Virus record (IMG/VR): IMGVR_UViG_3300045988_175328
Span: 32,001 to 96,000 of that record
Source: a virus
DNA: 64,000 bases
Reading direction: 5' to 3' (one strand)
Shown here: piece after piece, positions 4,680 to 45,132 of the stretch
How the letters are laid out: each line of letters opens with the position of its first letter
Numbering within the stretch: the first letter of the stretch is position 1
The notes under the pieces: generated by a model
What the model was told of the DNA's origin: nothing
The model's database searches: none
The model's input: only the letters and a program-made list of their open reading frames with translations
Translations under genes and position numbers: made by a program

Positions 4680-4753
4680 GCTTTCGTAGTTCAGTGGGAG
4701 AACAGCAGCATGTCACTGATCAGTCGCTGGTTCGAATCCAGCCGGAAGCACCA
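4680..4753 (+). tRNA. tRNA-like gene, Asp(GUC)-like anticodon loop, encoded CCA; the anticodon stem does not pair
   Basis: Acceptor GCTTTCG/CGGAAGC, D arm GTTC-AGTGGGA-GAAC, T arm GCTGG-TTCGAAT-CCAGC, and 3' ACCA are all canonical. Loop ATGTCAC gives U33-GUC-A37, but the flanking stem GCAGC/TGATC has only one Watson-Crick pair. Confidence 0.6.
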
Positions 4754-16955: not shown

Positions 16956-17444
16956 ATGGGAATTTTTACAGGCGCAGCCAATATAGCTAAAAAAGCATTT
17001 GCAAAAGGGTCTGGCTTAAAAGACAAGGCCTTTGCTCCAGGTCAAAACATTTTCACCAAAAGTAATCTTCTTGGTGCCGGTGTTTCTGGATATTTTGCTA
17101 AAGATGCTTACGATACAGCTATTGAATCTGGAGAAGGACAAGCTAAAGGATTAAGAGATGCGACTTTTCAATTAGGAACTGATTTATTTTTAGGTCCAGC
17201 TTTAGGTACTGCTGTTTACATGGCAGCAGGATTACCTTCGGCACTTGCATCAGCATCTTCAGAGCTTGCACAACAAGGTCGATTTTTATCGCAACAATCC
17301 TATCGGCCATTTCAATTTAGTCGTCCAGTTAATTCTGGACAATATGCAACGATGCGACAAGCCGGAATGGCGCTCGCAAAACAATCACAATATTCTATGC
17401 AACAAGCCTTAATGGGATCTGAGGCAAAGAATTTTCATAGGTAA
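16956..17444 (+). CDS. hypothetical Gly/Ala-rich membrane-type protein
   Basis: ORF track; RBS AAAAGGA. Confidence 0.5.
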   Translation: MGIFTGAANIAKKAFAKGSGLKDKAFAPGQNIFTKSNLLGAGVSGYFAKDAYDTAIESGEGQAKGLRDATFQLGTDLFLGPALGTAVYMAAGLPSALASASSELAQQGRFLSQQSYRPFQFSRPVNSGQYATMRQAGMALAKQSQYSMQQALMGSEAKNFHR

Positions 17445-17453
17445 TAATGATTA

Positions 17454-20400
17454 ATGAATTACAATAATATAACTCCAGAAATGGTTATGTCTATGGATTT
17501 ACAAGAGCTCGTAAAACTTGATTACGCTAAGCTTCCTGAAAAGTCAAAGCTTGCGGTAATTAAAAAAGACCCAGTTATGTGGGCTAAAGCTTTTATTTCT
17601 TCTTATTCAATTGAGCAAGAAGAATATGTTCCATGGACAGCCAGATGGTATCAAGCTGAAATGCTTAGAGATAGGAGTTTACGTAAAGTATATCGATGTG
17701 GTCGTCGGTGTATTGCCGGCGATACATTAATATATGATCCTGAAACTAATAGCTCTATTTCAGCTAAAGAATTGTTCGATACCCGACAGGATGATTTCTT
17801 TACAGTGGCTTGCTTGGATCATGATTTCAAAACAGAGCAGATGCCTCTAGCTAAAATATATGAAAATGGTGTAAAACAAGTATATACAATAACGACAGAA
17901 TACGATAAACAAATTACTGTTACAGAAAATCATCCATTCTTAACACAAGTAGGATGGAAAGAATTAAAACATCTTCGTGTTGGAAATTTAATTGCAGTCA
18001 TTCAAGACGAAGGTATTTTATCAAAGTATGTCGATATCGACAAACAAACAATTGAATTAATACAAAAAGAATTAAATAAAGAAGTAAGTATCGAAAGTTA
18101 TTCAGATCTAATGCTTTATGCAGAAGAGGCTGGACTTGAAACAGTTTACGATATTCTTGATGGCGATTTGGCATGGGAACGAATTAAATCAATTCGATTA
18201 CGTGGCACAGAAATGACATATGATGTGTCCGTACCAGAATATCATAATTTTATTGCGAATGGATTTATCACTCACAATACTGGTAAAACAGAAACAATGG
18301 TTATCGAAGCATTGTACAATTGTTTCACTCGAGATAACTTTGTTCATATGTTTGTAACGCCATACGAAAACCAAGTTCGATTAATTTTCGATAATTTAAA
18401 ATCTAAGATCGATTCCTCGCCAAGGATTCGAACAGCACTCACTCGGTCGACACGGTCGCCGTACGTGATGGAATTTAACAATAAATCAAAAATTGTTGGA
18501 TTTACAACGGGCGCAAGTTCTGGTAGTAGTGCTGCCTCTATCCGCGGATGGCGTAGTGACTGGATCTCACTCGATTAAATAATACTATTGTAATAGTTTA
18601 AATAGTCCATTTATTTGGTAACAAGTAAATGTTGAGTTAAATCTCAAGAGTCTATCTAATTGCTGGGAACCCCTAAAGCTTAAAGTGCCTTTGGGCTGCG
18701 AAAGCAGAAATAAATCTTTAAGATGATATATGGTTAAATCCTAAGTATTGTAAACAATGGGCAATCAGCAGCCAAGTTAGTATTATAATTAATATTAAAA
18801 GGTTCAACGACTATCCTGAGAAGGAGTACTATGTAAGCGCATAGGAAATGGTAGAAATCCTACAAAGGATTAAGATATAGTCTATGCTTTATCGAAAGAT
18901 AAAGGTGCGAGTAATGTCGCCGGCTAGAATTAGCGAATCTAGTTGAATTAATATCAGGAAATGGATAATTAAATAATAGTTCATTTAAAACGCCGTTAAA
19001 CAACGAAACTCCTAAGAAGGACAACGATGTACCAAGCTCATTAGTTAATAATGAGTAGTGTTCAACGACTAGGGATGAAATAAGCTCCCCACGAAAGCGG
19101 TGAAACCTACTACAGTCTTATCGTCAAGTTTTATTCTGTAGTACGGAAGACATAGTCTAAACTGGACCAGAACTGACTGGTCGATGAAAATGAAGGTAAC
19201 TTCCAGAGCGCAAGATAAAGAGCTTGCGGTTAATAACAAATTGTATCTAGGTGAAGGTGATTTCGACACAGTATATGCTCTTTGTATGGAACGTGCTAGT
19301 ATCGGAATGACATGTTCATCGACACCAACCGGTAGACGATCTAAGTTTTATGACATTTGTACTCAGAAGAGCCTCGGGTTAAAAATGGCCCCAATATTAA
19401 GCAATTAATGATTGAAAACCTTTTGAAATGCTGGGACTTCCTTTAAGGAAAATCAGCAGCGAAGCTTCTTAAATTTAAGAAGAACGTTCAACGACTATCC
19501 CATTTGGGAGTAGGGTCAAGCGACTCGAAGCAGAAGGCGTCCTATTGGGACGAAGATATAGTCTGAGCTACATAGAGATATGTAGAAGGTTGCAAGTAGC
19601 GAATGCAATCGTAACAATACTGTTAAAGAGCATTACCATCCCGCACAGCATAGTCCTCTATATTCTCCAGAAATGGAGAAAGAATTCAGGGCGACATTCG
19701 ATAAAAATGCGTATGTACATGAAGTACTTGCAGAATTTGGTATCGAAGAAGCTGGCGTGTTTGATAAAGAAGCTCTCGAAAGAGCGACTCGCATGGACAA
19801 TTATGTCTATAATGACGAGATCAAACCGGTACATAATGAATTTAATTTGCGCTCAGCAAAGAAAATTCACCTTCTTCCAGAAGGACAAACTACATATAAG
19901 TATAACATGTATAGAACTATGGCAGTTGACTGGGATAAATCGCAGGCGCCAACTTCTATACTCGTCTTAGATTATGACCACGAATGGAATAAATTCCGGG
20001 TCATTAATCGAACTATGATCGAGCCATCAGATTTTCATTATGACTTGGCGGTAAAAAAGATCATTAATTTAAATGCTATATATAATCCTACTCATATCTA
20101 TATTGATAGGGGCGCAGGTAAGTAACTTGCCTCAATATAAAGAAAGCACATATATTTATATTGGATAATGCGGAATTAAGCGAGAACTCTAAGTTAAATA
20201 ATATGAGAACTCGAACCGAAGGCATTGCTAAGTAATGTCAGGGGCAGAGCATAGAAGTTGAAAAGATATAATACTTCCACGAGTCCGCATCACAGTTGTG
20301 CTATTATACTGTGAAAAAATATGCCGAACTTACAGGAAACTATAAGAACTACAAGATAAAAAACTTGTAGGATAACAAATTGGAGTATCAGATAGAAGCT

Positions 20401-20961
20401 CTTAAAATATATGGGAAAGAGCATCCATCTTCCGGCCTCGACAAAAAAATAAAAGGATTTATGTTCTCCGAGAAAATTCCAGTACAAGATCCAATTACTG
20501 GGATGATGGTGAAGAAGCATTTAAAACCATATATGGTAACTCAGCTTTCGATACTTATCGAAAGAAATAATTTAATATTAAGTCCGTATGATAGTCATAT
20601 ATTTAAACAACTTATTGACTATCGTATTGAAAAAATAACACAGTCTGGTGTTCCTGTGTATACTAGCGTTAATGAGCATTTTGTCGATGCACTTGGTCTT
20701 GCTTATCTTGCTTTTGTTCAAAACTTTCCAGAGTTAACGAATCTTGTTAAAGAAGCAGAACATAGACCATGTATTAAAATATTCGACAAATCTCCATTAG
20801 CTTCATATGCAAAAAAAGATTTAGACAATCCATGGGATTCTCGTGGATCTTTTGAATCACCAGACGAAGCATGGCAAAAGGTTCCGATGAACGAACCTTT
20901 AATTTCAACTAAGAAAAAAGCATTTTCAAAAAGTAATTGGTTTAAGAGGTCTATGTTTTAA
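17454..20961 (+). CDS. terL: terminase large subunit, interrupted by one intein and four group I introns
   Basis: Proposed coding segments are 17454..17708 + 18279..18575 (joined by protein splicing), 18958..18966, 19244..19379, 19623..20119 and 20383..20961. They total 1773 nt (590 aa) in one frame. Walker A is reconstituted as CGRR-TGKTE. Walker B is DWISLDE(MDY). Other motifs: SSTPTGRRSKFYDI, and nuclease-domain-like MAVDWD, IYIDRGAG-EYQIE, NEHFVDALGLAY. Confidence 0.8.
17709..18278 (+). other. mini-intein (190 aa) inserted in the terminase P-loop
   Basis: Starts CIAGDTLI (block A), contains VTENHPFLT (block B, TxxH), ends YHNFIANGFITHN followed by the +1 Thr of TGKT. No LAGLIDADG or HNH motif was seen inside. 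Confidence 0.75.
18576..18957 (+). mobile_element. group I intron, ORF-less member of the IStron-related family (copy 1)
   Basis: Core elements are P AATTGCTGGGAAC (about 18657), Q CAATCAGCAGCC (about 18762), R GGTTCAACGACTATC (18801) and S AAGATATAGTCT (18872). P1 is GAT|TA paired with TAGTC, with a U-G wobble at the splice U (18575). It ends ATATCAG| at 18957. It aligns along its length with 39632-40068 and 42552-42935. Confidence 0.7.
18958..18966 (+). CDS. terL: 9-nt terL micro-exon (GAAATGGAT = Glu-Met-Asp)
   Basis: Lies between the 3' end of intron 1a (by analogy with copy 3) and the 5' splice site of intron 1b. AAATGGAT pairs 8/8 with GTTCATTT (18980-18987), with a U-G wobble at the last exon U. 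It keeps the frame and supplies the Walker B Glu. Confidence 0.5.
18967..19243 (+). mobile_element. group I intron (terL intron 1b), ORF-less
   Basis: R GTGTTCAACGACTAGG (about 19059) and S GGAAGACATAGTCT (about 19145). P9-type hairpins GACCAG..CTGGTC, GAAG-GTAA-CTTC and CGCAAG..CTTGCG. Ends ..AAATTG| and is followed in frame by YLGEGDFD. Confidence 0.6.
19380..19622 (+). mobile_element. group I intron (terL intron 2), td-like core, ORF-less
   Basis: P AAATGCTGGGAC (19427), Q AATCAGCAGCG (19451), R GTTCAACGACTATCCCATTTGGGAGTAGGGTCAAGCGACTCG (19486), S GAAGATATAGTCTG (19553). The 5' exon GGGT pairs with GCCC (U-G wobble). Ends ..CAATACTG|. Splicing gives ..QKSLG-F-KEHYHP.. in frame. Confidence 0.7.
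20120..20382 (+). mobile_element. probable group I intron (terL intron 3) with a divergent core
   Basis: P1 hairpin GGT|AAG-TAA-CTTGCC has a U-G wobble at the splice U (20119). Ends AAATTG| (20382). Joining gives IYIDRGAG-EYQIEALK in frame, which removes the in-frame stop at 20123. An S-like AAAGATATAATAC is present, but the R/P/Q elements are not canonical. Confidence 0.5.
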
Positions 20962-20963
20962 TT

Positions 20964-22634
20964 ATGGATGAAAATAAAAGAATACTTTTTGAACCGAAGA
21001 TAGAACCATATAGGCATTACGAATCAGATGCCAATTTCTTTCATGACTTAACAATTAATCCTATTGTAGGGGACCCTTTATCGATACCTTTAGGTGAAGA
21101 TACAGAAAAAGAAGTAGATCTTTTATTGGGCGAGTTACAAGAAATATATCAGTTAATTGATTTTATGCCGATTCCGATTCGGCCGATTATCGAAAATATT
21201 CTTGTGACAATAACAACTGAAACCATAATTAAAGAGATTCCTCCTCCGCCACACGAGACTCCGCCTGAAATACATATTCCAGAGGAACCTATTCCGGAGA
21301 AGAAGCCTCCAAAACTTACTCCTCATTTTCCTTCAGATCCTGAAGAGAAAAAAATTGTAACGCCTAAACCTGCGCCTAAAGATGATCCGTTTGGATTCGA
21401 CGAAGGACCCAAGAAAGACGTTAAGATCGGAAAATCTCTTCCGATTTCTGAAGTCGTTAATAAAATAGATTATCGTAATAATGTAAGAATTAAACGTGGT
21501 TGGGTCGCCCAACTATCGTCAGCACTTAGTCGATATATGCATAAAATGATGCACGCTGTAAGGCTGACTGGAGCGGAAGATATAACAGCATTTCTTCTTT
21601 TGTTTGACGGGTGGTTTGTTAAAACCGATAAAAATAAAAAAGAAAAAGCAGCACATGATACAATTGTGCGTAACGATGCTGAAATACGAGAAAAAAGTAA
21701 ATTACTCGCAAAGGTAATTTCGCCAGAAGAACTTCTTAAAAGCATGAGAGCATTAGAAGTTACTTCTCAGACTAGATCTAAATACTATTCATACAAATAT
21801 TCTACAGAAGGAAAGACATTCCTAGAGCAGATGGAAAATGATTTACTGTTCCATAAAAGAAGAAAGTATGATCTTAAGTATATAGATGCGGCGAATAATT
21901 ATTATAAATTATTAACTTCTTCTGTTAAATTAACCGATGATATATTTAATTTAACAGCTGAATCAGCTATGGCAAAAGCTGTACTATTAAATAAAGGGAT
22001 CGATATATTTGCACAACGCCCTATTCCTGATCCTATCTATTATTTAAATACATTAAATCCGTCTCTTGGAGATGTCGATGCCAATGGTCGATCTAGAACA
22101 GGGACATATGCTAAGCAAGCAAATCCAAATGATCCGACATGGAATCATACTGTATATAATCTCGAAGGAGTTGAGATTACTGCTGTCGGCGATTCTTTGC
22201 TTGCAGGGTCTCAAGAAATACTTAGAAGCAAACTTCCTAAATTTGAATCTGACGCTAAAGTAGGTCGACAAGCATCTGAGGCAATCGAGATATTTAAAAA
22301 TTTAGCAGGATCTACTCGTTTAGGAAAATTAGTAATTGTTTCACTCGGTACTAATGGTGATATGGTATCTGATGGTTCTGCCGATAAGATCATGGAAATT
22401 ATTGGTACAGATCGAGATGTTCTATGGTATAATAACTATGCAACGGCATCCAATGTTACTTGGGCCGAAACGAATAATAATTATCTCAATGAATTAAGAT
22501 CCAAATATCCTAAATTAAGAATTTTAGATTGGAAAGGAACTGCATCTAGCAAAAATCTTCTTTCTGGAGATGGAGTGCATCCATCAAGTTATGAAGAGTT
22601 TGCCCAGTTAGCATTAAGTGCATTAGGTAAATAA
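20964..22634 (+). CDS. protein with a Pro-rich N-terminal half and a C-terminal SGNH/GDSL hydrolase domain
   Basis: VEITAVGDSLLAGS (block I GDS), VIVSLGTNGD (block III), LSGDGVHPS (block V DxxH). PPPPHETPPEIHIPEEPIPEKKPPK linker. Confidence 0.6.
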   Translation: MDENKRILFEPKIEPYRHYESDANFFHDLTINPIVGDPLSIPLGEDTEKEVDLLLGELQEIYQLIDFMPIPIRPIIENILVTITTETIIKEIPPPPHETPPEIHIPEEPIPEKKPPKLTPHFPSDPEEKKIVTPKPAPKDDPFGFDEGPKKDVKIGKSLPISEVVNKIDYRNNVRIKRGWVAQLSSALSRYMHKMMHAVRLTGAEDITAFLLLFDGWFVKTDKNKKEKAAHDTIVRNDAEIREKSKLLAKVISPEELLKSMRALEVTSQTRSKYYSYKYSTEGKTFLEQMENDLLFHKRRKYDLKYIDAANNYYKLLTSSVKLTDDIFNLTAESAMAKAVLLNKGIDIFAQRPIPDPIYYLNTLNPSLGDVDANGRSRTGTYAKQANPNDPTWNHTVYNLEGVEITAVGDSLLAGSQEILRSKLPKFESDAKVGRQASEAIEIFKNLAGSTRLGKLVIVSLGTNGDMVSDGSADKIMEIIGTDRDVLWYNNYATASNVTWAETNNNYLNELRSKYPKLRILDWKGTASSKNLLSGDGVHPSSYEEFAQLALSALGK

Positions 22635-38003: not shown

Positions 38004-38474
38004 ATGGAATTAGGTATCAATTTTAGATATGATAGCAAAAGGCGTGCGGCACTTATCTTAGTTTTTGATCGAGAGAGACTATTGCTTAAAGCAATTAGTG
38101 TTTTAAGAAAAAAACTACAGATTCCTTATCGAGAACTCGGAAAAACTAAAGATGGATTATTTTATGTTAAATATAAAGGAATGCTCGCTGCTTATATATA
38201 CTGGTGGATACATCGTATATTTAAAGCAGAATCTGCTAAAGAACACTATCCTTTATTTAAAGAAATATTCCTTCAAGATTTCGAGGGAGAATTGCCATAC
38301 GAAGAACTTCTTGCTTTAACTAATTCAGTCGAAACAGATGAACAAATAACGATCGGTGTTCCATCTGACTCGACGCTAACATGGTGTAAACGTATCCAGA
38401 GATGGCTACCGTTTAAAACTAGAATAGCATCGAGAACAGGAAAGAAAAAAGAGTATTTCCTGCTTTTAAAATAA
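38004..38474 (+). CDS. free-standing, N-terminally shorter paralog of the intron-encoded protein at 38883..39497
   Basis: ALILVFD..LLLKAISVLRKKL..YVKYKGMLAAYIYWWIHRIF and C-terminal WLPFKTRIASRTGKKKEYFLL align with [41 protein letters not shown] and [22 protein letters not shown]. Confidence 0.55.
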   Translation: MELGINFRYDSKRRAALILVFDRERLLLKAISVLRKKLQIPYRELGKTKDGLFYVKYKGMLAAYIYWWIHRIFKAESAKEHYPLFKEIFLQDFEGELPYEELLALTNSVETDEQITIGVPSDSTLTWCKRIQRWLPFKTRIASRTGKKKEYFLLLK

Positions 38475-38528: not shown

Positions 38529-41500
38529 ATGGCATATCAAAATGACACTAGTGTAACAAGTGCATCTCAATACACTCGTTCTTACACTACTTTCTCTGGC
38601 TGTGATATCGTTGCAACTTTCGGATCCGAAGTTGTAGCTGAAGTACAAGGTATTACAGTTTCTATCAACCGTGAGAAAGCTCCGGTCAACAAACATTTTT
38701 GATATATGCTGAATCAAAACCTATAGGCCGGAGTAAAACTTTGCTAAAATCGGTGAAAGAGCACTAACACCGAGGATAAGAATATGATATAATAATATTG
38801 TGTTCAATGTCCGTAGAGACTTGAGACACTATTCTCTTAATGATGTATCCATTCCCAGCTAGGGAAATAACGGAGGTTTTTAATGAATGAAGTACTTGCT
38901 TGGTATTTAGGACTTAGTTACCAAGAAGATCAGTATCCAAGAAGTGTTGCCAGTGATTTACATAGTTATTTTATTCGCGGATTAGTTGAACAACTTAATC
39001 CATTTTATTATCGTGAAAAACGATCACTACTTATTTTGGATCTCGTATATCATTCAAAAGATGTTTTAGAATCGATAAAGAAAATTTTCAAAGAAAAATT
39101 ATTAATCGATTCTAAAGTTAAAGAGCTCGATAATAAATATATTTTAAATGTTTCTGGAAAGAATGCTAAAATTATTTTCTGGTGGTTATATCATGAAGAT
39201 TTTAGTACAAGTTATTCAGAAGAAATAGTAAATATATTAACAGATAAAGAAATAACTGATTTAAATAATATGAGCGACGACGATTCCTTACTTGAATTAA
39301 TCGGCGCTTATTATTCTGAAGATAATCATATTTCTTTTAATTGTCCTTATTATGAATCATTAGATCTAGCTAAAAAAGTAAGAAATTTACTTTCGTTTAA
39401 AACACAACCAGTGACTCATACAAAAGGAAAAAGAAAACATTATCAGCTTTATATTCCAAAAAACCAATCATTAATACGCAAAGCATCGAATGAGTAATCA
39501 TTCGTAAAGATATAGTCCACTTAATTGGGTTATACATTTGGTTCAGCTGAGCCTCGTTCTATCTCGAGAGGTAATAATAACTCTTTTGCTTCTCCTTTGC
39601 AGTAATGCAACGCATAATTAAACTCTGTGATTAAATGTGCTATACATACTTACAACTTAAGTCATGAGTAAGTAGCACGTATAGTCCACATATCTGGTAA
39701 CAGGTATGTGCCAAGTGGTAACACTCGGAGATTCACTGAATTGCTGGAAAGTCCTAAAGCTTGAATAACTACAACATAATATCGTACAAGTACGATATAA
39801 GCGTGAATGTTGCGAAAGCAGAAAAAATATTCAAGATGGTATATGGTTAAATCCTAAGTACTGTAGCAATGGACAATCAGCAGCCAAGCCCGTAAGGGAA
39901 GGTTCAACGACTATCCTGAGAAGGAGTAGGGCTCAAGCGAGTGGGTGAAAATCCCTTAAATCGAAGTAGTGAAGGTCCTTTAGAAAAGGATTAAGATATA
40001 GTCTGTGCTTTATCGAAAGATAAAGGTGCGCGCAGTGGCGCCGGCTAAGAGTAGCGATCTTAGTTGAACGAACAACTCTCATATAAACCCTACGGTTTTA
40101 TATATTGAAATTAACCTCCTAAAGTACTATAATAATAGTATATAGTTACGAAAGGAGGTGCCTCGTGAATAAAAGTTTTAAAGTAGAAATTTATCCAGAT
40201 CAAGATCAGGAAATTTTAATTGAGAAAACATTTGGCTGCGTAAGATATACTTACAATTTTATGTTAAATTTAAAACAACTTCTGTATAAAGAATTTGGAA
40301 TATCAATAACTTTAAATAGGATATCCAAAGTTCTTACGATGCTAAAAAAACTTAAGCCATGGCTTGCAGAAGTTGATAAATGTGCATTGCAATATGTTCT
40401 CAAAGATCTTTTTTTTGGATATGAAAAATTCTTTAATGGCGGAGGATTTCCTGAATTTAAAACTAAACGAGGGAAGAATTCTTATCGTACAAATAGTCGT
40501 TTACATTTAGATCAAGATAAAAAGATGATTAAGATCCCTAAAGTCGGCTGGATTAAGTTTAGAGATAAAAGTAAATTTATTGGTCTTAAAAAGATTTACA
40601 ATATCACTATTTCTAAAAGTGCTAGTGGAAAATATTTTGCCAGTATTTCAGCCGAAGTCGAAATCGAAGCTTTGCCTAAAACCAAAGTAAACTGCGGTAT
40701 CGACTTAGGATTAAAAGATTTTTGTATCTTGAACGATGGAACAGTATTTGAGAATCCTAAATTTTTGGCAAGTAAAGAAAAACGACTCAAAAGGTTACAA
40801 AAGTCTTTAAATCGAAAGAAACTAGGATCTAAGAATTATTTTAAAGTTAAAGCTAAAATAGTTAGACTTCATGAATATATAGCAAATTGTCGAAAAGATT
40901 ATCTGCACAAAATATCTATATTCTTAGTTAGAACTTATGATATTATTTGTGTTGAAACTCTAAAAGTTAAGAATATGCTTAAGAATCATAAGTTAGCTAA
41001 AGCTATTATTGACGTTAGTTGGTATGAATTTTGTCGACAGTTAGAATATAAATGTTTATGGTATGGAAAGAAATTTGTACAGATTGGGACTTATTTCGCA
41101 TCATCACAAACATGCTCTAATTGTGGCTTCAAGAATATAGAAGTTAAGAATCTTGATGTTCGAGAATGGAATTGTCCAGAATGTGGAGTTCATCACGATC
41201 GAGATATTAACGCAGCTATAAATATTCTCAACGAAGGCTTAAAATTAGCTTAATTTCAATATATAGAACCGCAGGGCATGCGGGGATAGCCTACTGTCTT
41301 AGTATAAGACGTATAGTGAATTTATATTTACTATACGCAACTATTGGGTAGGAACCTCGTCACTTTAAGTGGTGAGAGGATGTCAGATGCTGGAAACCCC
41401 TTAGAGCCTTTGGTACCAAAGTGTGACAATCTAAAGGATTGGGCAATCAGCAGGCAGCTTTATCTATTAGATATTGCGCCTCAACGACTATCCGTAAGGA

Positions 41501-43145
41501 GTACACCATAATAGCCGGTGGAAGCGCAGAGCTCCCTAGAATAATATAGGTATTGCTATATTCTCCTTTTTGTATTATAATAAATATATAAGGAGGTCTT
41601 AAATATGGCGCAATACAATTATAATTTTGATATTTTAGAAAAAGAATCACCTGAAAAATATTATTTTCTTGGCTTTATCGCAGCAGATGGAGCATTAACA
41701 AATGGCGGAATTGTTTTTGAACTAAACAAGAGAGATGGATATATGGTAAAGAAATTAAATGATTACATATGTCCTGAAAAAGAAGTTAAGTTTAGAGAAG
41801 AAACAAATTCTTGTCGAGCAACATTTTATAATCTTGAAATGACAAAGAAACTAAAAAAATATTTTTCAATGACAAGCAATAGAAAAACCGAAGAGATTAG
41901 ATTCCCAGAAGTACCAGATGAATATCTTCGAGATTTTATTCGTGGGATCATCGATGGTGATGGAACTATCGATACGACTAAAGGATACAAAGGAAATAAA
42001 ATTTATATTGGTGCTCGACTTCGAATCTTAGGTAATGAAATTTTTCTAAAAGAATTAAATGAGAAAACAAAATTATTATATCCACATAATACAAATGCTG
42101 TAAACAGAAAAGGTAAGGAAAATATACATATTATAACTTATAACTTTAAAACAGCGCGCGAATTATTGAAAATAATATATTATGACGGATGCCTATGTTT
42201 AAAACGAAAATTCGATCGTTCTAGGGATGAAGATATAGTCTCTACATTAGTGAGAGCTAAATGATAATCATTCTCAAAAAAAGAGGGATCGCCGGCACTA
42301 TTGTATTCACACTATTTGATCGTGATGCATTAGTCGACGCATTGGCTATTCGCGCAGCAAAAGCTGCGTATTTCCAACGTATTGGTGGTGATATCAATTA
42401 CCAACCATACACAATTACTGAATGGGATACTAAATTGACAGATATGGTAGTTAATACTTTATCTTCCAGTAACAGTTCCCAAATTGCATCCAGTAATCCA
42501 TTTAAACTTACTCAAAAAGTAGCTGTTCAATCTACTCCTAAATACTCCGATTATTCTTAATATAGTCCGTATGTTTAGTAATAAGCATATGTTAAACATA
42601 AATGTTTAAGGTCTCATCGAATTGCTGAAAACCCGTAAAGCTTAAAACGCTACAGCATAATTTTGAAAAACAAATAAGTGCGATAGTAACGAAAGTAAAA
42701 AAAGTTTTAAGATAGCGTATGGTTAAATCCTAAGCGCCACAACAATTGGCAATCAGCAGCGAAGCTCCAAATAGGAGAACGTTCAACGACTAGAGCAAGA
42801 TGCTCGTACACTCAAGCGAGTGGAAGTGGTGAGGGCCCATTTGATGGGTCAAGATATAGTCTATGCCTTAGTGAAAATTAAGGGAGCAACAATTTGTTGC
42901 CAAATAATAGTAGCGATATTATTTGAATATAACAGGAAATTCCGCCATTTGACATTACTTTATCTTTTGCAAATGAGTATGGTCAATCGGCAGTAATGGT
43001 TATCTACGGCGTAGAGATCTTAAATGAAGCTTCTAGTTTCTCTGTAGATTCTACTACGACTGATAAAGCATGTACTTACATTGCTCGTTCTGTAGATTAC
43101 TTGCAACCAGTAGAAAACAAATACTTATTGAATAACAATTACTAA
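38529..43145 (+). CDS. tail tube protein, split into four exons by four self-splicing elements
   Basis: Exons are 38529..38686, 39530..39572, about 42279..42551 (alternative starts 42264 or 42288) and 42936..43145, totalling 684 nt (227 aa). The joined product is [67 protein letters not shown]... It is colinear with the N-terminal domain of the paralog at 43429 (..[61 protein letters not shown]). It lies directly after the sheath gene. No SD sits close to the ATG. Confidence 0.75.
38687..39529 (+). mobile_element. group I intron A of the tube gene (carries ORF 38883..39497)
   Basis: P1: exon CTCCGGT pairs 7/7 with GCCGGAG (38727-38733), with a U-G wobble at the splice U (38686). R-like TGTTCAATGTCCGTAGAGACT (38802) and S AAAGATATAGTCC (39506). 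Ends ..AATTGGG| only 11 nt after S. The ORF sits between R and S. Confidence 0.6.
38883..39497 (+). CDS. intron-encoded protein (LAGLIDADG-like or maturase-like; acidic catalytic motif not evident)
   Basis: RBS ACGGAGG. The only motif-like segments are WYLGLSY and YFIRGLVEQ. It has a paralog at 38004..38474. Confidence 0.55.
   Translation: MNEVLAWYLGLSYQEDQYPRSVASDLHSYFIRGLVEQLNPFYYREKRSLLILDLVYHSKDVLESIKKIFKEKLLIDSKVKELDNKYILNVSGKNAKIIFWWLYHEDFSTSYSEEIVNILTDKEITDLNNMSDDDSLLELIGAYYSEDNHISFNCPYYESLDLAKKVRNLLSFKTQPVTHTKGKRKHYQLYIPKNQSLIRKASNE
40105..40133 (+). promoter_or_regulatory. sigma70-type promoter for tnpB (TTGAAA-17 nt-TATAAT)
   Basis: TTGAAA 40105-40110, 17-nt spacer, TATAAT 40128-40133, 32 nt upstream of the GTG start. 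Confidence 0.45.
40165..41253 (+). CDS. tnpB: TnpB (IS200/IS605-family OrfB, RuvC-type RNA-guided nuclease)
   Basis: GTG start after AAAGGAGG. Ruv[12 protein letters not shown], Ruv[14 protein letters not shown], zinc finger CSNCG..CPECG, Ruv[16 protein letters not shown]. Confidence 0.85.
41230..41386 (+). ncRNA. candidate TnpB omega RNA scaffold / transposon right end (5' boundary approximate)
   Basis: A 133-nt non-coding tail follows tnpB, with hairpins CCGCAGGGCATGCGGGG and CCTCGTCAC-TTTAA-GTGGTGAGAGG just before the proposed element end at 41386. The guide would be read from 41387 onward (ATGCTGGAAACCCC..). Confidence 0.4.
41605..42264 (+). CDS. LAGLIDADG homing endonuclease (two-motif, monomeric type), encoded in intron C
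   Basis: RBS TAAGGAGG. Motifs [13 protein letters not shown] and [13 protein letters not shown]. The 3' end of the ORF overlaps the intron S element. Confidence 0.8.
   Translation: MAQYNYNFDILEKESPEKYYFLGFIAADGALTNGGIVFELNKRDGYMVKKLNDYICPEKEVKFREETNSCRATFYNLEMTKKLKKYFSMTSNRKTEEIRFPEVPDEYLRDFIRGIIDGDGTIDTTKGYKGNKIYIGARLRILGNEIFLKELNEKTKLLYPHNTNAVNRKGKENIHIITYNFKTARELLKIIYYDGCLCLKRKFDRSRDEDIVSTLVRAK
42552..42935 (+). mobile_element. group I intron, ORF-less member of the IStron-related family (copy 3)
   Basis: Inserted after TCCGAT (42551). P1 is GAT|TAT paired with ATAGTC, with a U-G wobble at the splice U. P ATTGCTGAAAACCC (42621), Q AATCAGCAGCG (42750), R GTTCAACGACTAG (42781), S AAGATATAGTCT (42851). 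Ends TATAACAG| (42935). Joining gives [15 protein letters not shown], matching the paralog's YLMD-ELPNFDITLSF. Confidence 0.75.
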
Positions 43146-43152
43146 TAAGTTA

Positions 43153-43195: not shown

Positions 43196-43432
43196 TTGGA
43201 AAATACGAATCAAGTCTTTCTGTATCTAAACAAAGTTTTAGATGATTATATTAAAGAAGCTGTTCAACGAAGAGTTTCTTTAGACGAAGCTAATCTTGAG
43301 ATGAAAGAAGTTTGTCTTAAAGAATTAGAGCAAAGATCAATAGAGCTTAAACCACATATAAAAACACTTGTTGAAAATAGAGTTAAACAATATCTTAAAG
43401 TCTACCACTTAAAAGTGAGGTATTTAAAATGA
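43196..43432 (+). CDS. hypothetical protein
   Basis: TTG start 7 nt after GAGGT; ATGA coupling to the next gene. Confidence 0.45.
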   Translation: MENTNQVFLYLNKVLDDYIKEAVQRRVSLDEANLEMKEVCLKELEQRSIELKPHIKTLVENRVKQYLKVYHLKVRYLK

Positions 43433-45132
43433 CACAAGAAAAAGAGATTGTTCAAACTTCTAAATACACAAGAACATACAATTCATATAGTGGATGCGAT
43501 ATTGTAGCTTCTATTAATATTTCAATACCAGGGCAAGAACCTATTCATCATGTGTTCGGCAGCATTCAAACACTTTCTTATAGCATCCATCAGGAGAAAA
43601 CTCCAGTTAGAGCAATCGGGAATGTAAATGCAATTACGTATGTAGATGGGCCCAGAACAATTGCTGGCACTATTGTATTTACAGTTTTAGATAAGCATGT
43701 AATATATGAAATTTTTGAAGAATTAACAAAGAAGGGGCAATATATCAATGAACATTATTTAATGGACGAGCTCCCTAATTTTGACATTACTTTATCTTTT
43801 GCAAATGAATATGGCCATAATAGTTCTATCAGTATATATAATTGCACTATTATGGATGAAGGACAAGTCATGTCTGTTAATGATATTTTGACAGAAAATA
43901 CATATCATTATTATGCGACTGATATTGACTACATGACTGAATCTGAAAGCTATTGGACAATTAATCGTCAAAAGATTATTGAATCAAATCCTTGGCTTAG
44001 TCCTCAGAACTTTAAACCGCAACCACAGGTTCCGGCAAAAGAAATAGACGATTGCCCATTAGAAAAAATTAGTCGATATAAGTATCGAACATATGCTGAA
44101 TATGTTACTGCTTTAAATAAGGCATACGAAAAACATCGAGATGAATTAGTTGAAGCGCAGAAGACTGATCGTATTGTAGCTTGTCGTCATAAGTATCATA
44201 CTCTTGTCGAAGATGCTAAAAAATATTATAAAATTGGCGATATGCCATATGGATTAAATAGAATTCCTAAACGAAGACCAGCTGTTGTCAATAAAGATTA
44301 CGATAAATTCAGAACACAAATTCGTAAAACTTCAAGAGCTGTTCCTGATTATGACAACTGTAGAGTTAGAAAACATACTGGTCCAATCCAGGCGCCAGAT
44401 TTTAATATAAGAACATCTCGTACTTATAATAGAATTATAATTCCAGATTTAAATATGCCGCGATTAAGATATAATTCATATCGTGACTATCCAGAATTTG
44501 AGAGTCGAGAACGATATGAATCATCTAGAAGCTATCCTGAATTTAGATCTAGGAATTATAAAAAATTCTCGACACGAGGATACCCTATATATAAAACTAA
44601 TTATGCTAAGCATTATAGAGAAGATCCTCCAGAATTTAATTCTAGACTTCGACCTCAAAAATATAAAGTTAATGTCCCGGAATACGAGACTCATAAAAGA
44701 AGAAAAGTCGATATTATGGTCCCAGAATTTGAATCAAGAAAGGCTCCTGAAAGAAAAAGAGAAGGATATCCTGAGTATACAACTCAATATCCAGAGCATA
44801 GAAAAATTGTTCCTCCAGAATTTCCAAGAGTTAGGAATTTAAGAGATAGAGTCCATGATTATGTTCCTGATGAAATTATCGATAGAAACCATGACCATGA
44901 CAATAAACCAATTTTTAAAAATAGAAAACGAGAAAAAATTATCGAGAAAGAAAAAGAAATACATAAAAAGCCAGAAATTAAAGAAAAAAAACGTTTAGAT
45001 TTTGTTCTTAAGAAAAAAGATTCTAGTATGGTGATTGAAGAAGTCAAGAAAGAAGAAACTAAGCCTAAAGACAAATTTAGAATTCGTTCTGTTATCGAAA
45101 AGAACGCAACACCAGATCGAGGTGATAGCTAA
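43429..45132 (+). CDS. tail tube paralog with a long basic C-terminal repeat extension
   Basis: The N-terminal ~200 aa are colinear with the spliced tube protein. The C-terminal region (about nt 44446-44870) carries about 8 copies of a (Y/V/P)PE(F/Y)xxR motif, then a KEKE-rich tail. Confidence 0.65.
   Translation: MTQEKEIVQTSKYTRTYNSYSGCDIVASINISIPGQEPIHHVFGSIQTLSYSIHQEKTPVRAIGNVNAITYVDGPRTIAGTIVFTVLDKHVIYEIFEELTKKGQYINEHYLMDELPNFDITLSFANEYGHNSSISIYNCTIMDEGQVMSVNDILTENTYHYYATDIDYMTESESYWTINRQKIIESNPWLSPQNFKPQPQVPAKEIDDCPLEKISRYKYRTYAEYVTALNKAYEKHRDELVEAQKTDRIVACRHKYHTLVEDAKKYYKIGDMPYGLNRIPKRRPAVVNKDYDKFRTQIRKTSRAVPDYDNCRVRKHTGPIQAPDFNIRTSRTYNRIIIPDLNMPRLRYNSYRDYPEFESRERYESSRSYPEFRSRNYKKFSTRGYPIYKTNYAKHYREDPPEFNSRLRPQKYKVNVPEYETHKRRKVDIMVPEFESRKAPERKREGYPEYTTQYPEHRKIVPPEFPRVRNLRDRVHDYVPDEIIDRNHDHDNKPIFKNRKREKIIEKEKEIHKKPEIKEKKRLDFVLKKKDSSMVIEEVKKEETKPKDKFRIRSVIEKNATPDRGDS

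What the first reader, a model, noticed from the sequence alone, without database searches (positions are those of the whole stretch)
17454..20961. Large terminase broken at five places: one intein plus four group I introns
Seen: the ORF track shows terL as fragments (17454-18578, 19184-19408, 19673-20125, 20380-20961). Each gap contains group I core motifs (GTTCAACGACTA / AAGATATAGTC). Each proposed 5' splice site is a U that forms a U-G wobble in a P1 helix, and each intron ends in G. The joined exons give one 590-aa frame with Walker A, Walker B and nuclease motifs in the order expected for T4 gp17-like terminases. Inference: packaging depends on four RNA splicing events plus one protein splicing event. 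That is an unusually high load for a single essential gene.
Basis: partly seen in the sequence, partly recalled or inferred. Interest (0 to 1): 0.75.

Follow-up and report, generated by a model that had tools for sequence, protein, structure and literature searches.

The report
Terminase gene: four introns, one intein
The DNA-packaging motor gene of this roughly 227-kb uncultured phage is interrupted by four small self-splicing-type (group I) introns and one protein intron (intein). Two of the introns lie only 9 bases apart, so the motor's catalytic glutamate is encoded on a three-codon exon. This is a very heavy load, but every element is of a known kind.

Summary
The finding holds. terL (17454-20961, + strand) is split into five exons by four ORF-less group I introns: 18576-18957, 18967-19243, 19380-19622 and 20120-20382. 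Exon 1 also carries a 190-aa mini-intein (17709-18278) inside the Walker A loop (GRR|TGKT).

Removing all five elements gives a 590-aa, 68.6-kDa protein. It aligns without gaps at every junction to 20-28 uninterrupted homologues (45-51% identity).

The key detail is a 9-nt exon, GAAATGGAT (18958-18966). It encodes E185-M186-D187 of Walker B, and E185 and D187 are invariant in the family. ORF-based joining misses this exon.

Rfam's group I model scores two introns above threshold (86 and 91 bits), one just below (46) and one weakly (26). The two weak ones are supported by homologous introns at the same terL codons in other viral contigs. In those families the guide sequence covaries with the exon codons, the U·G pair at the splice site is conserved, and 26-31 base pairs show compensatory changes.

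One correction: the third gap lacks the quoted core motifs and carries a compensated variant instead.

Splicing itself is inferred, not shown. Multi-intron phage genes, terminase inteins and small exons are all documented, so this is an extreme new member of a known kind.

The parts
17454..17708 (+). terL exon 1, N-extein (aa 1-85, ends ...RCGRR, first half of Walker A)
   Evidence: ORF. Aligns to uninterrupted homologues up to GRR.
17709..18278 (+). Mini-intein of 190 aa: Cys1 ... T-E-N-H (block B) ... His-Asn, followed by Thr+1. No homing-endonuclease domain.
   Evidence: Pfam Intein_splicing 80 bits. TIGR01445 43.7 and TIGR01443 35.6 bits. The closest solved chain is the Ssp DnaB mini-intein 1mi8, E 2e-18. 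Removal restores the invariant GRRTGKT.
18279..18575 (+). terL exon 1, C-extein part (TGKTE ... WISLD; ends with the Asp184 codon GAU of Walker B)
   Evidence: An in-frame stop follows at 18576.
18576..18957 (+). Group I intron 1 (382 nt, no ORF). The 5' splice site follows U18575. The guide is UAGUCC at 18603-18608, with G18605 opposite U18575. The intron ends ...AUAUCAG.
   Evidence: RF00028 86 bits for 18605-18904. Homologous to the window introns at about 39.65 kb and at 42552-42935 right through to ..ACAG|GAAAU. 48 of 106 pairs are compensatory, including two hairpins inside 18907-18945. A relative, L068, has a group I intron at the same D|E codon boundary.
18958..18966 (+). Exon 2: the 9-nt micro-exon GAAATGGAT = Glu185-Met186-Asp187 (Walker B catalytic Glu)
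   Evidence: It is the only 9-mer in 18576-19243 that encodes E-x-D. It is preceded by G and ends in T. E185 and D187 are invariant in 29 aligned sequences. Eight of its nine nucleotides form P1 with the guide of intron 2.
18967..19243 (+). Group I intron 2 (277 nt, no ORF). The guide GUUCAUUU at 18979-18986 pairs with AAAUGGAU. The intron ends ..AAUAACAAAUUG.
   Evidence: RF00028 46.2 bits. Homologues sit at the same D187|Y188 site in L080, L049 and L084. P1 covaries with the exon codons and 26 of 59 pairs are compensatory.
19244..19379 (+). Exon 3 (YLGEGDF ... SSTPTG ... KSLG, plus the first base of the Phe233 codon)
19380..19622 (+). Group I intron 3 (243 nt, no ORF). P1 is GGGU|UA with UGGCCC (19386-19391). 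The intron ends ..AACAAUACUG.
   Evidence: RF00028 91.4 bits for 19370-19585. P1 hairpin folds. The 3' site is fixed by the gap-free LG-F-K-EHYHP alignment. No relative was found with this site occupied.
19623..20119 (+). Exon 4 (..FKEHYHP ... AVDWDKS ... YIDRGAG)
20120..20382 (+). Group I intron 4 (263 nt, no ORF, divergent core). P1 is AGGU|AAG with CUUGCCU (20126-20132). P7 is GCAUA/UAUGC. The intron ends ..GAUAACAAAUUG.
   Evidence: RF00028 gives only 25.8 bits. Homologous introns occupy the same G398|E399 site in six relatives, with the same 5' GGU| boundary and 3' ..UUxG|GAR boundary. The U·G pair is invariant, P1 position -4 shows the pair types AU, GC, CG and UG, and 31 of 61 pairs are compensatory.
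20383..20961 (+). Exon 5 (EYQIEALK ... NEHFVDALGLAY ... stop codon at 20959-20961)

Best explanation
**What it is.** This is the large terminase (TerL, T4 gp17 type) gene of an uncultured phage of about 227 kb. Five selfish elements interrupt it.

**How expression most likely works.**
1. The gene is transcribed as one pre-mRNA.
2. Four small ORF-less group I ribozymes excise themselves. In each, a short guide sequence near the intron's 5' end pairs with the last exon bases so that the final U sits in a U·G wobble.
3. Guanosine attacks at that wobble. The freed exon 3'-OH then attacks after the intron's terminal G.
4. Introns 1 and 2 sit after two Asp codons (GAU) only nine bases apart. The mRNA must therefore retain a three-codon exon, Glu-Met-Asp, that carries the Walker B catalytic glutamate.
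5. The spliced mRNA encodes a 780-aa precursor.
6. A class-1 mini-intein (Cys1 ... His-Asn / Thr+1) lodged in the Walker A loop then removes itself by protein splicing. The product is a 590-aa, 68.6-kDa TerL.

**What is shown and what is inferred.**
- Shown here: the architecture, the junctions, and the homology and covariation of the introns.
- Inferred: the catalytic activities, and the order and efficiency of the splicing events.
For: **Junctions**
- The spliced, intein-free product is one open frame of 590 aa.
- It aligns without a gap at all five junctions to 20 uninterrupted homologues.
- D184, E185 and D187 are invariant in 29 sequences.
- It reaches Pfam Terminase_6N across three junctions (24.4 bits against a cut-off of 22). 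The family profile hits T4 gp17 (3ezk, E 2e-6).

**Introns**
- RF00028 gives four hits, two of them above the gathering score.
- Each of introns 1, 2 and 4 has a homologue family with many compensatory pairs.
- In the intron 2 family the guide tracks the E-x-D codons: AUGGAU/GUUCAU here, GUGGAU/GUCCAC in L080, AUAGAU/GUCUAU in L049.
- In the intron 4 family the guide tracks the Gly-codon context.
- The same codon boundaries are occupied singly in relatives.

**Micro-exon.** It is the unique E-x-D 9-mer in the gap, with G before it and U at its end.

**Intein.** The N- and C-terminal splicing blocks and the nucleophiles are present. Relatives carry in-frame insertions at the same Walker A site (P0104 carries intein Pfam domains).

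**A circulating sequence.** Four independent assemblies carry 100% identical sequence over 17300-21100. This argues for a circulating genome, not an assembly artefact.
Against: - There is no RNA or protein data, so splicing is inferred.
- Intron 4 scores far below Rfam's threshold, and it lacks a roughly 26-nt hairpin that its relatives have. It could need a helper factor.
- Intron 1's pairing with its own 5' exon is weak: 3 exon bp plus 2 intron bp, about -2.5 kcal/mol. Its guide pairs better with the downstream micro-exon, at -8.4 kcal/mol. No convincing P10 was found for intron 1.
- No relative has an intron at site 233, so that 3' splice site rests on the protein alignment alone. An in-frame alternative exists at G19589.
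- The four contigs are identical, so there is no within-lineage variation to use.
- The nuclease domain was not independently identified.
Confidence: 0.88

Rival explanations
1. The elements are the same but the junctions differ. In this reading the exons are what the ORF track suggests: a 36-nt exon at 18905-18940, then exons starting at 19181/19184, 19586/19590 and 20371. The protein would carry 30-, 11- or 12-, and 4-aa insertions.
For: The Rfam match ends (18904, 19180, 19585, 20346) are each at a G. The downstream tails stay open in frame with the next exon. Alternative in-frame 3' sites exist at G19589 and G20370.
Against: - The inserted residues have no counterpart in any of 20-28 homologues, and the Walker B glutamate would be lost.
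- 18905-18945 is conserved intron RNA with compensatory changes in two hairpins.
- Homologous introns in relatives end exactly at the positions equivalent to 19243 and 20382, directly before the Tyr188 and Glu399 codons.
Confidence: 0.04
2. The gene is decaying or only partly functional. One or more introns (most likely intron 4 or intron 1) no longer splices efficiently. Alternatively, the main product skips the 9-nt exon (18575 joined to 19244), giving an in-frame TerL without Glu-Met-Asp. Packaging would then rely on another terminase copy or on a minority of correctly spliced mRNA.
For: - Intron 4 has a weak Rfam score and a deleted peripheral hairpin.
- Intron 1 has a weak P1.
- Exon skipping between neighbouring group I introns has been observed in phages SIOphi and Twort (PMC11878797).
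- Only 64 kb of the roughly 227-kb contig could be inspected for a second terL.
Against: - All exons are intact, with every invariant family residue kept.
- The guide sequences match their exons, including the micro-exon.
- The identical sequence was recovered in four assemblies.
- No other terL is present in the window.
Confidence: 0.06
3. The gaps are not introns. In this reading the fragments are joined by translational bypassing or frameshifting, or they act as separate polypeptides.
For: A 49-nt stretch (19189-19237) could be hopped to give LDE-KLYLG, which superficially recalls T4 gene 60 (own reading).
Against: - Every gap holds a complete group I core.
- The hop lacks matched take-off and landing codons and lacks a stop after take-off.
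- The stretch in question is a conserved intron 3' domain, found in at least 120 viral contigs and at other insertion sites.
- Stops occur in all frames within the gaps.
Confidence: 0.01

Closest known systems
Group I introns in terminase large-subunit genes of Bastillevirinae Bacillus phages (e.g. SIOphi, phiAGATE); PMC11878797
   Same: TerL is interrupted by self-splicing group I introns, up to two or three per gene. [quoted passage not shown]
   Different: Here there are four introns plus an intein. All four introns are short (243-382 nt) and lack homing-endonuclease ORFs. The inter-intron exon is only 9 nt and encodes the Walker B glutamate. The phage is unrelated: the best TerL match among isolated phages is Moorella phage MTATph1 at 37% identity.
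Staphylococcus phage Twort orf142 (tail tube gene) with three group I introns (Landthaler & Shub 1999, cited in PMC11878797)
   Same: One essential late phage gene carries several related group I introns. The introns share the GUUCAACGACUA / AAGAUAUAGUC core typical of phage subgroup IA introns (the subgroup typing is from my own knowledge). The window also has a tail-tube-like gene split by several introns.
   Different: There are three introns against four, there is no intein, and the exons are not as short as 9 nt (the last point is from my own knowledge and was not checked here).
Inteins in the P-loop of phage terminase large subunits, and the Ssp DnaB mini-intein (PDB 1mi8)
   Same: A Hint-domain intein is inserted in the Walker A motif. 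Relatives in IMG/VR carry in-frame insertions at the same site, and Bacillus phages KLEB27-3 and WH1 have long terL CDSs whose match to the query begins just after that site. The sequence is closest to the DnaB mini-intein.
   Different: This one is a 190-aa mini-intein without an endonuclease domain and with Thr as the +1 nucleophile. It shares its gene with four introns.
Introns plus an intein in the ribonucleotide reductase genes of Bacillus prophage SPbeta (own knowledge; Lazarevic et al. 1998)
   Same: Group I introns and an intein coexist in one essential nucleotide-handling gene or operon.
   Different: The gene is different, there are fewer elements per gene, and there is no micro-exon.
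Small ORF-less group I introns of jumbo phages (AR9 / PBS1 / BpSp, Yersinia phiR1-37)
   Same: The 3' terminal domain of introns 2 and 4 (..GAUGAAAAUGARGG.AAC.UCCAGAGC-hairpin-GGUUAAUAACAAUUNG) matches unannotated or intragenic stretches in these phages at 75-86% identity. The motif occurs in at least 120 viral contigs.
   Different: In those phages the matches lie in other genes, for example gyrase A in AR9. Their intron status was not examined here.

Membership tests
Group I intron (Rfam RF00028) | Conserved catalytic core (P3-P9, with the P7 guanosine-binding helix) that matches the covariance model | tested here: met
   Introns 1 and 3 score 86 and 91.4 bits against a gathering score of 50. 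Intron 2 scores 46.2 and intron 4 scores 25.8, both below it. For introns 2 and 4 the core helices are supported by family alignments with 26/59 and 31/61 compensatory pairs. These include P7 GCAUA/UAUGC and P8 in the intron 4 family.
Group I intron (Rfam RF00028) | The 5' splice site follows a U that forms a U·G wobble with an internal guide sequence (P1) | tested here: met
   All four sites follow U: 18575, 18966, 19379 and 20119. P1 hairpins are predicted for introns 2-4. Guide/exon covariation is seen in the intron 2 and intron 4 families, with the U·G pair invariant. For intron 1 the guide AUAGUCC and the exon end GAU are invariant in three paralogues, so there is no covariation, and the pairing is weak.
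Group I intron (Rfam RF00028) | The intron ends in G (omega G) directly before the 3' exon | tested here: met
   G18957, G19243, G19622 and G20382. The same holds in relatives at sites 184, 187 and 398.
Group I intron (Rfam RF00028) | Guanosine-dependent self-splicing | not testable with these tools
   This needs in vitro transcription and splicing, or cDNA from infected cells.
Mobile group I intron with a homing endonuclease | An endonuclease ORF within the intron | tested here: not met
   No plausible + strand ORF lies inside any of the four introns, and all are 243-382 nt long. Larger introns (1.1-1.35 kb) at the same or neighbouring sites in relatives (L040, L058, L084) may carry such ORFs, but this was not examined.
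Intein (Hint domain, class 1) | N-terminal and C-terminal splicing blocks | tested here: met
   Pfam PF14890 80 bits. TIGR01445 43.7 bits at aa 86-164. TIGR01443 35.6 bits at aa 255-276. Two-part match to the Ssp DnaB mini-intein 1mi8.
Intein (Hint domain, class 1) | Catalytic residues: Cys/Ser1, block B T-x-x-H, C-terminal His-Asn, and a +1 Cys/Ser/Thr | tested here: met
   The sequence reads CIAGD......TENHPF......FITHN|T.
Intein (Hint domain, class 1) | In-frame insertion in a conserved host motif, which is restored on removal | tested here: met
   Removal gives CGRRTGKTE, identical to the family consensus.
Intein (Hint domain, class 1) | Protein splicing activity | not testable with these tools
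   This needs expression followed by a western blot or mass spectrometry.
Large terminase, T4 gp17 type (Pfam Terminase_6N) | ATPase domain with Walker A, Walker B (hhhhDE) and the C-motif (S/T-S/T-T), in that order | tested here: met
   GRRTGKT, WISLDE and SSTPTG are present in the spliced product. Terminase_6N scores 24.4 bits against a cut-off of 22, over aa 83-284. The family profile aligns to T4 gp17 over these motifs.
Large terminase, T4 gp17 type | C-terminal RNase H-like nuclease domain with catalytic acidic residues | tested here: inconclusive
   Family-invariant D335, D337, D394, E403 and D500 occur in the expected order. There is no Pfam hit for the C-terminal half. The only PDB hit is a sub-threshold match to the UvrC endonuclease domain (E 0.044).

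The most novel reading that the evidence does not exclude
**The reading.** The 9-nt exon makes terL a splicing-gated switch. The exon is three codons long and encodes the Walker B catalytic glutamate. Skipping it (exon 1 joined directly to exon 3) would therefore give a full-length, in-frame, ATPase-dead TerL. Such a protein could poison or time the multimeric packaging motor.

**What hints at coupling.** Intron 1's guide sequence (GUCCAUUU, 18605-18612) pairs with the micro-exon better (-8.4 kcal/mol) than intron 2's own guide does (-5.5), and far better than it pairs with its own 5' exon (-2.5). The two ribozymes may therefore compete for, or hand over, the micro-exon. The ratio of active to dead terminase would then depend on splicing order and GTP level.
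Probability: 0.1. Interest if true: 0.7.

Novelty: new member of a known kind. Interest (0 to 1): 0.45.

Why it matters
**Density.** To my knowledge this is the most densely interrupted phage terminase gene described. It has five self-removing elements in 3.5 kb, of which only about half (1.77 kb) encodes the mature protein.

**The micro-exon.** It provides a natural case of a three-codon exon flanked by two group I ribozymes in a bacterial virus. That exon carries the catalytic residue of the packaging ATPase. This makes it a convenient system for studying three things:
- splice-site choice
- the order of splicing
- exon skipping by neighbouring ribozymes

**Comparative result.** In this terminase family, ORF-less introns recurrently occupy sites just after Asp (GAU) or Gly (GGU) codons in the most conserved motifs. 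Their guide sequences co-evolve with the codons.

**Practical point.** Gene callers split this gene into fragments. Naive ORF joining gives a wrong protein that lacks the catalytic glutamate.

Tried and rejected
1. **Joining exons at the Rfam match ends or ORF starts.** This gave a 636-aa protein with 30-, 12- and 4-aa inserts and no Walker B Glu. I rejected it after aligning to homologues.
2. **A single excision across gap 1.** No U/G-bounded excision gives LDE..YLG. The only LDE-containing one needs an intron that ends in A.
3. **Other micro-exon candidates.** GAATTAGCG (ELA) and GAATCTAGT (ESS) are not bounded by G...U, and they lie inside a conserved intron hairpin.
4. **A T4 gene-60-like translational hop over 19189-19237.** I rejected this because the stretch is a conserved intron domain.
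5. **P1 of intron 1 as CUCGAU/GUUGAG (-6.5 kcal/mol).** This pairing is not conserved in the two paralogous introns, which instead keep GAU|UA / UAGUC. It is kept only as an alternative, and both models use the same U18575.
6. **Looking for sequence variants of this phage.** Four contigs are 100% identical over the region.
7. **A viral-contig scan with the single protein.** It found nothing. The alignment-based scan worked.
9. **A PDB sequence search with the C-terminal half.** It gave only a sub-threshold UvrC match.


Full report
**What is there.**

The first fragment ends at an in-frame TAA directly after ...W-I-S-L-D.

The fragments belong to a large terminase. A provisional concatenation finds the TerL of Moorella phage MTATph1 (37% identity) and of the large Bacillus phages KLEB27-3, WH1 and 0305phi8-36. 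It also finds about 500 uninterrupted metagenomic homologues of roughly 590 aa at 45-51% identity.

The window is part of a 227-kb ENA contig. Three other assemblies carry 100% identical sequence over 17300-21100.

**The intein.**

Residues 86-275 of the first ORF (nt 17709-18278) begin with Cys, contain T-E-N-H, end in His-Asn and are followed by Thr. The supporting matches are:
- Pfam Intein_splicing, 80 bits
- NCBIfam intein N-terminal model, 43.7 bits, and C-terminal model, 35.6 bits
- a two-part match to the Ssp DnaB mini-intein 1mi8

No endonuclease domain is present. Removal restores CGRR|TGKTE, the family's invariant Walker A. Many relatives have in-frame insertions at the same place.

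**The introns and where they really end.**

Rfam's group I model matches four places on the + strand:
- 18605-18904, 86 bits
- 18939-19180, 46.2 bits
- 19370-19585, 91.4 bits
- 20110-20346, 25.8 bits

Joining exons at those ends, or at the ORF starts, gives a protein with 30-, 12- and 4-residue inserts that no homologue has. That protein also lacks the Walker B glutamate. The family consensus reads ...hhhD-E-x-D-Y-[LM]......LG-[FY]-x-EH[FY]HPS... and ...DRG[AS]G-EYQIE....

The only model that satisfies the consensus, with every 5' site after U and every intron ending in G, is this:

| Element | Coordinates |
|---|---|
| Exon 1 | 17454-18575 |
| Intron 1 | 18576-18957 |
| Exon 2 | 18958-18966 (GAAATGGAT = E-M-D) |
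| Intron 2 | 18967-19243 |
| Exon 3 | 19244-19379 |
| Intron 3 | 19380-19622 |
| Exon 4 | 19623-20119 |
| Intron 4 | 20120-20382 |
| Exon 5 | 20383-20961 |

The mature protein aligns gap-free at all five junctions. D184, E185 and D187 are invariant in 29 sequences.

The mature protein reaches Pfam Terminase_6N over aa 83-284, which spans the intein site and the first three intron sites. The family profile aligns to T4 gp17 over Walker A, Walker B and the C-motif.

**Independent support from related introns.**

A tblastn of the mature protein against 80 viral contigs that encode relatives shows about 35 interrupted genes, with recurring break points:
- Walker A (aa 86)
- D179|W180
- D184|E185
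- D187|Y188
- about aa 296-338
- G398|E399

*Site 184.* L068 has a group I intron there (Rfam 53.6 bits). It is followed by GAA ATG GAC TAC, the same E-M-D-Y.

*Site 187.* L080, L049 and L084 have clear homologues of intron 2 there. Their 3' ends align base for base with ..GGUUAAUAACAAAUUG|UAU. In this family the guide sequence follows the exon codons: AUGGAU/GUUCAU here, GUGGAU/GUCCAC in L080 and AUAGAU/GUCUAU in L049. In all, 26 of 59 predicted pairs show compensatory changes.

*Site 398.* Six relatives have homologues of intron 4 there. All share the 5' boundary GGU| and the 3' boundary ..UUxG| directly before the Glu399 codon. In the five sequences aligned (this window plus L066, L073, L088 and L061) the U·G pair is invariant and P1 position -4 shows the pair types AU, GC, CG and UG. 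P7 is GCAUA/UAUGC, a doubly compensated version of the usual GACUA/UAGUC. In all, 31 of 61 pairs are compensatory.

*Intron 1.* It is homologous over its full length to two other introns in the window, at about 39.65 kb and at 42552-42935. The homology includes the stretch 18905-18945 that naive joining would treat as exon. Two hairpins there show compensatory changes.

The 42552-42935 paralogue ends ..AACAG|GAAAUUCC. Protein homology to a neighbouring paralogous gene confirms that junction as ...KYSD|[11 protein letters not shown]. It therefore sits in the same CGAU|GAAAU context as intron 1 of terL.

*Micro-exon.* GAAATGGAT is the only 9-mer in the whole 668-nt gap that encodes E-x-D. It is preceded by G and ends in T.

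*Intron 3.* It has the best Rfam score and a clean P1 hairpin, GGGU|UA/UGGCCC. No relative has an intron at its site, so its 3' end (G19622) rests on the protein alignment alone. It also rests on the resemblance of its tail..GUAACAAUACUG, to the tails of related introns.

- The third gap does not contain GTTCAACGACTA or AAGATATAGTC. It has the compensated variant described above.
- The fragment coordinates are ORF coordinates, not exon coordinates.
- Otherwise the observation and the interpretation stand.

**How it most likely works.**

The pre-mRNA must lose four introns by the standard two-step guanosine-initiated pathway. The 780-aa precursor must then lose the intein. Without the RNA steps, translation stops at 18576. 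Without the protein step, Walker A is split by 190 residues. All of this is inferred from anatomy and comparison. Nothing here measures splicing.

None of the introns carries an endonuclease gene, so they are probably immobile passengers or depend on endonucleases supplied in trans.

**Open points.**
- Intron 1 pairs weakly with its own 5' exon (GAU|UA with UAGUC, about -2.5 kcal/mol). An alternative pairing, CUCGAU/GUUGAG (-6.5), exists but is not conserved in the paralogues.
- Intron 1's guide region GUCCAUUU is a perfect 8-bp match to the micro-exon (-8.4 kcal/mol). That is stronger than intron 2's own P1 (-5.5). It may be chance, because four extra bases lie in a P2 stem. It may instead reflect history or competition for the micro-exon.
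- Skipping the micro-exon would be in frame and would delete the catalytic glutamate. Exon skipping between adjacent phage group I introns has been observed experimentally elsewhere (PMC11878797).

**Comparison with what is known.**

All of the following are documented:
- group I introns in phage TerL genes, up to three per gene
- a small exon between two introns
- exon skipping (PMC11878797, which also cites three introns in Twort orf142)

Terminase inteins in the P-loop are common in relatives.

The 3' domain shared by introns 2 and 4 occurs in at least 120 viral contigs. It also occurs in jumbo phages AR9, PBS1, BpSp and phiR1-37. This is therefore an extreme example of a known phenomenon. 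It has five elements, against at most three visible gaps in 80 relatives, and a 9-nt exon. It is not a new mechanism.

**Verdict.**
- Novelty: new member of a known kind.
- Interest is moderate (0.45), mainly because of the three-codon catalytic exon and the clean guide/codon covariation data.

Noticed in passing
window 38529-43148 (+): A second late gene, tail-tube-like, is also split by several group I introns. It is paralogous to the N-terminus of the 43429-45132 ORF. Exon-like pieces are 38529-38687 (MAYQ...REKAPV), about 39531-39572 ([14 protein letters not shown]), about 42270-42551 (..[14 protein letters not shown]...KYSD) and 42936-43148 ([16 protein letters not shown]...). Rfam group I hits lie at 39684-40025, 42137-42262 and 42542-42883, with a partial hit at 41388-41490. 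The exact exon map between 39.57 and 42.27 kb was not resolved.
   Followed up: partly
window 39645-41400 (+), ORF 40165-41253: A TnpB-like ORF lies immediately 3' of a group I intron core (39684-40025), inside the split tail-tube-like gene. Its Pfam scores are HTH_OrfB_IS605 56.6, OrfB_IS605 88.1 and Cas12f1-like TNB 89.8 bits. The arrangement looks like an IStron (group I intron fused to an IS605-type element; PMC4227781, PMC10690162) sitting in a phage structural gene. The ends, any guide RNA and a tnpA gene were not examined.
   Followed up: partly
window 41605-42264, 38004-38474 and 38883-39497 (+): 41605-42264 is an endonuclease-like ORF (phrog_4645 109 bits; weak Pfam LAGLIDADG_3) and lies within intron sequence of the split tail-tube-like gene. 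Two further ORFs (156 and 204 aa) have similar C-terminal ends (..SFKT..GKxK.Y.L) and no family hit. One of them, 38883-39497, overlaps an intron core whose AAGATATAGTC motif is at 39507.
   Followed up: no
window 18605-18612 versus 18959-18966: Intron 1's guide region GUCCAUUU is perfectly complementary (8 bp including the U·G) to the 9-nt exon. It pairs with that exon more strongly (-8.4 kcal/mol) than intron 2's own guide does (-5.5), and more strongly than intron 1 pairs with its own 5' exon (-2.5). The significance is unknown.
   Followed up: partly
window 19181-19243 and 20347-20382; loci L040, L061, L066, L073, L080, L084, L088 and L089-L168: Introns inserted at different terL codons share a highly conserved 3' terminal module: ..GAUGAAAAUGARGG.AAC.UCCAGAGC-hairpin(loop GAUAAAGA)-GGUUAAUAACAAUUNG|. 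It also matches AR9, PBS1, BpSp, phiR1-37 and a Clostridium phage. Its structural role (3' splice-site selection?) is not known to me.
   Followed up: partly
L084:913-2560 (IMGVR_UViG_3300031867_005538): A relative's terL has a 24-nt exon (TGGTTGTTCCTCGACGAGTTGGAT = WLFLDELD, 2261-2284). It lies between a 1.35-kb group I intron inserted after D179 and an intron 2 homologue inserted after D187. Across relatives, the introns at sites 179, 184 and 187 all sit directly after a GAU codon, and those at site 398 sit after GGU.
   Followed up: partly
one search hit table (P0053, P0063, P0078, P0098, P0108): Several uninterrupted homologues of this terminase, about 590 aa long, are named 'replicative DNA helicase' by JGI. 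This is probably a mis-annotation, possibly propagated from DnaB-intein-like relatives.
   Followed up: no
window 4680-4750 (+): A tRNA gene (Rfam tRNA model, 47.4 bits). The anticodon was not determined.
   Followed up: no
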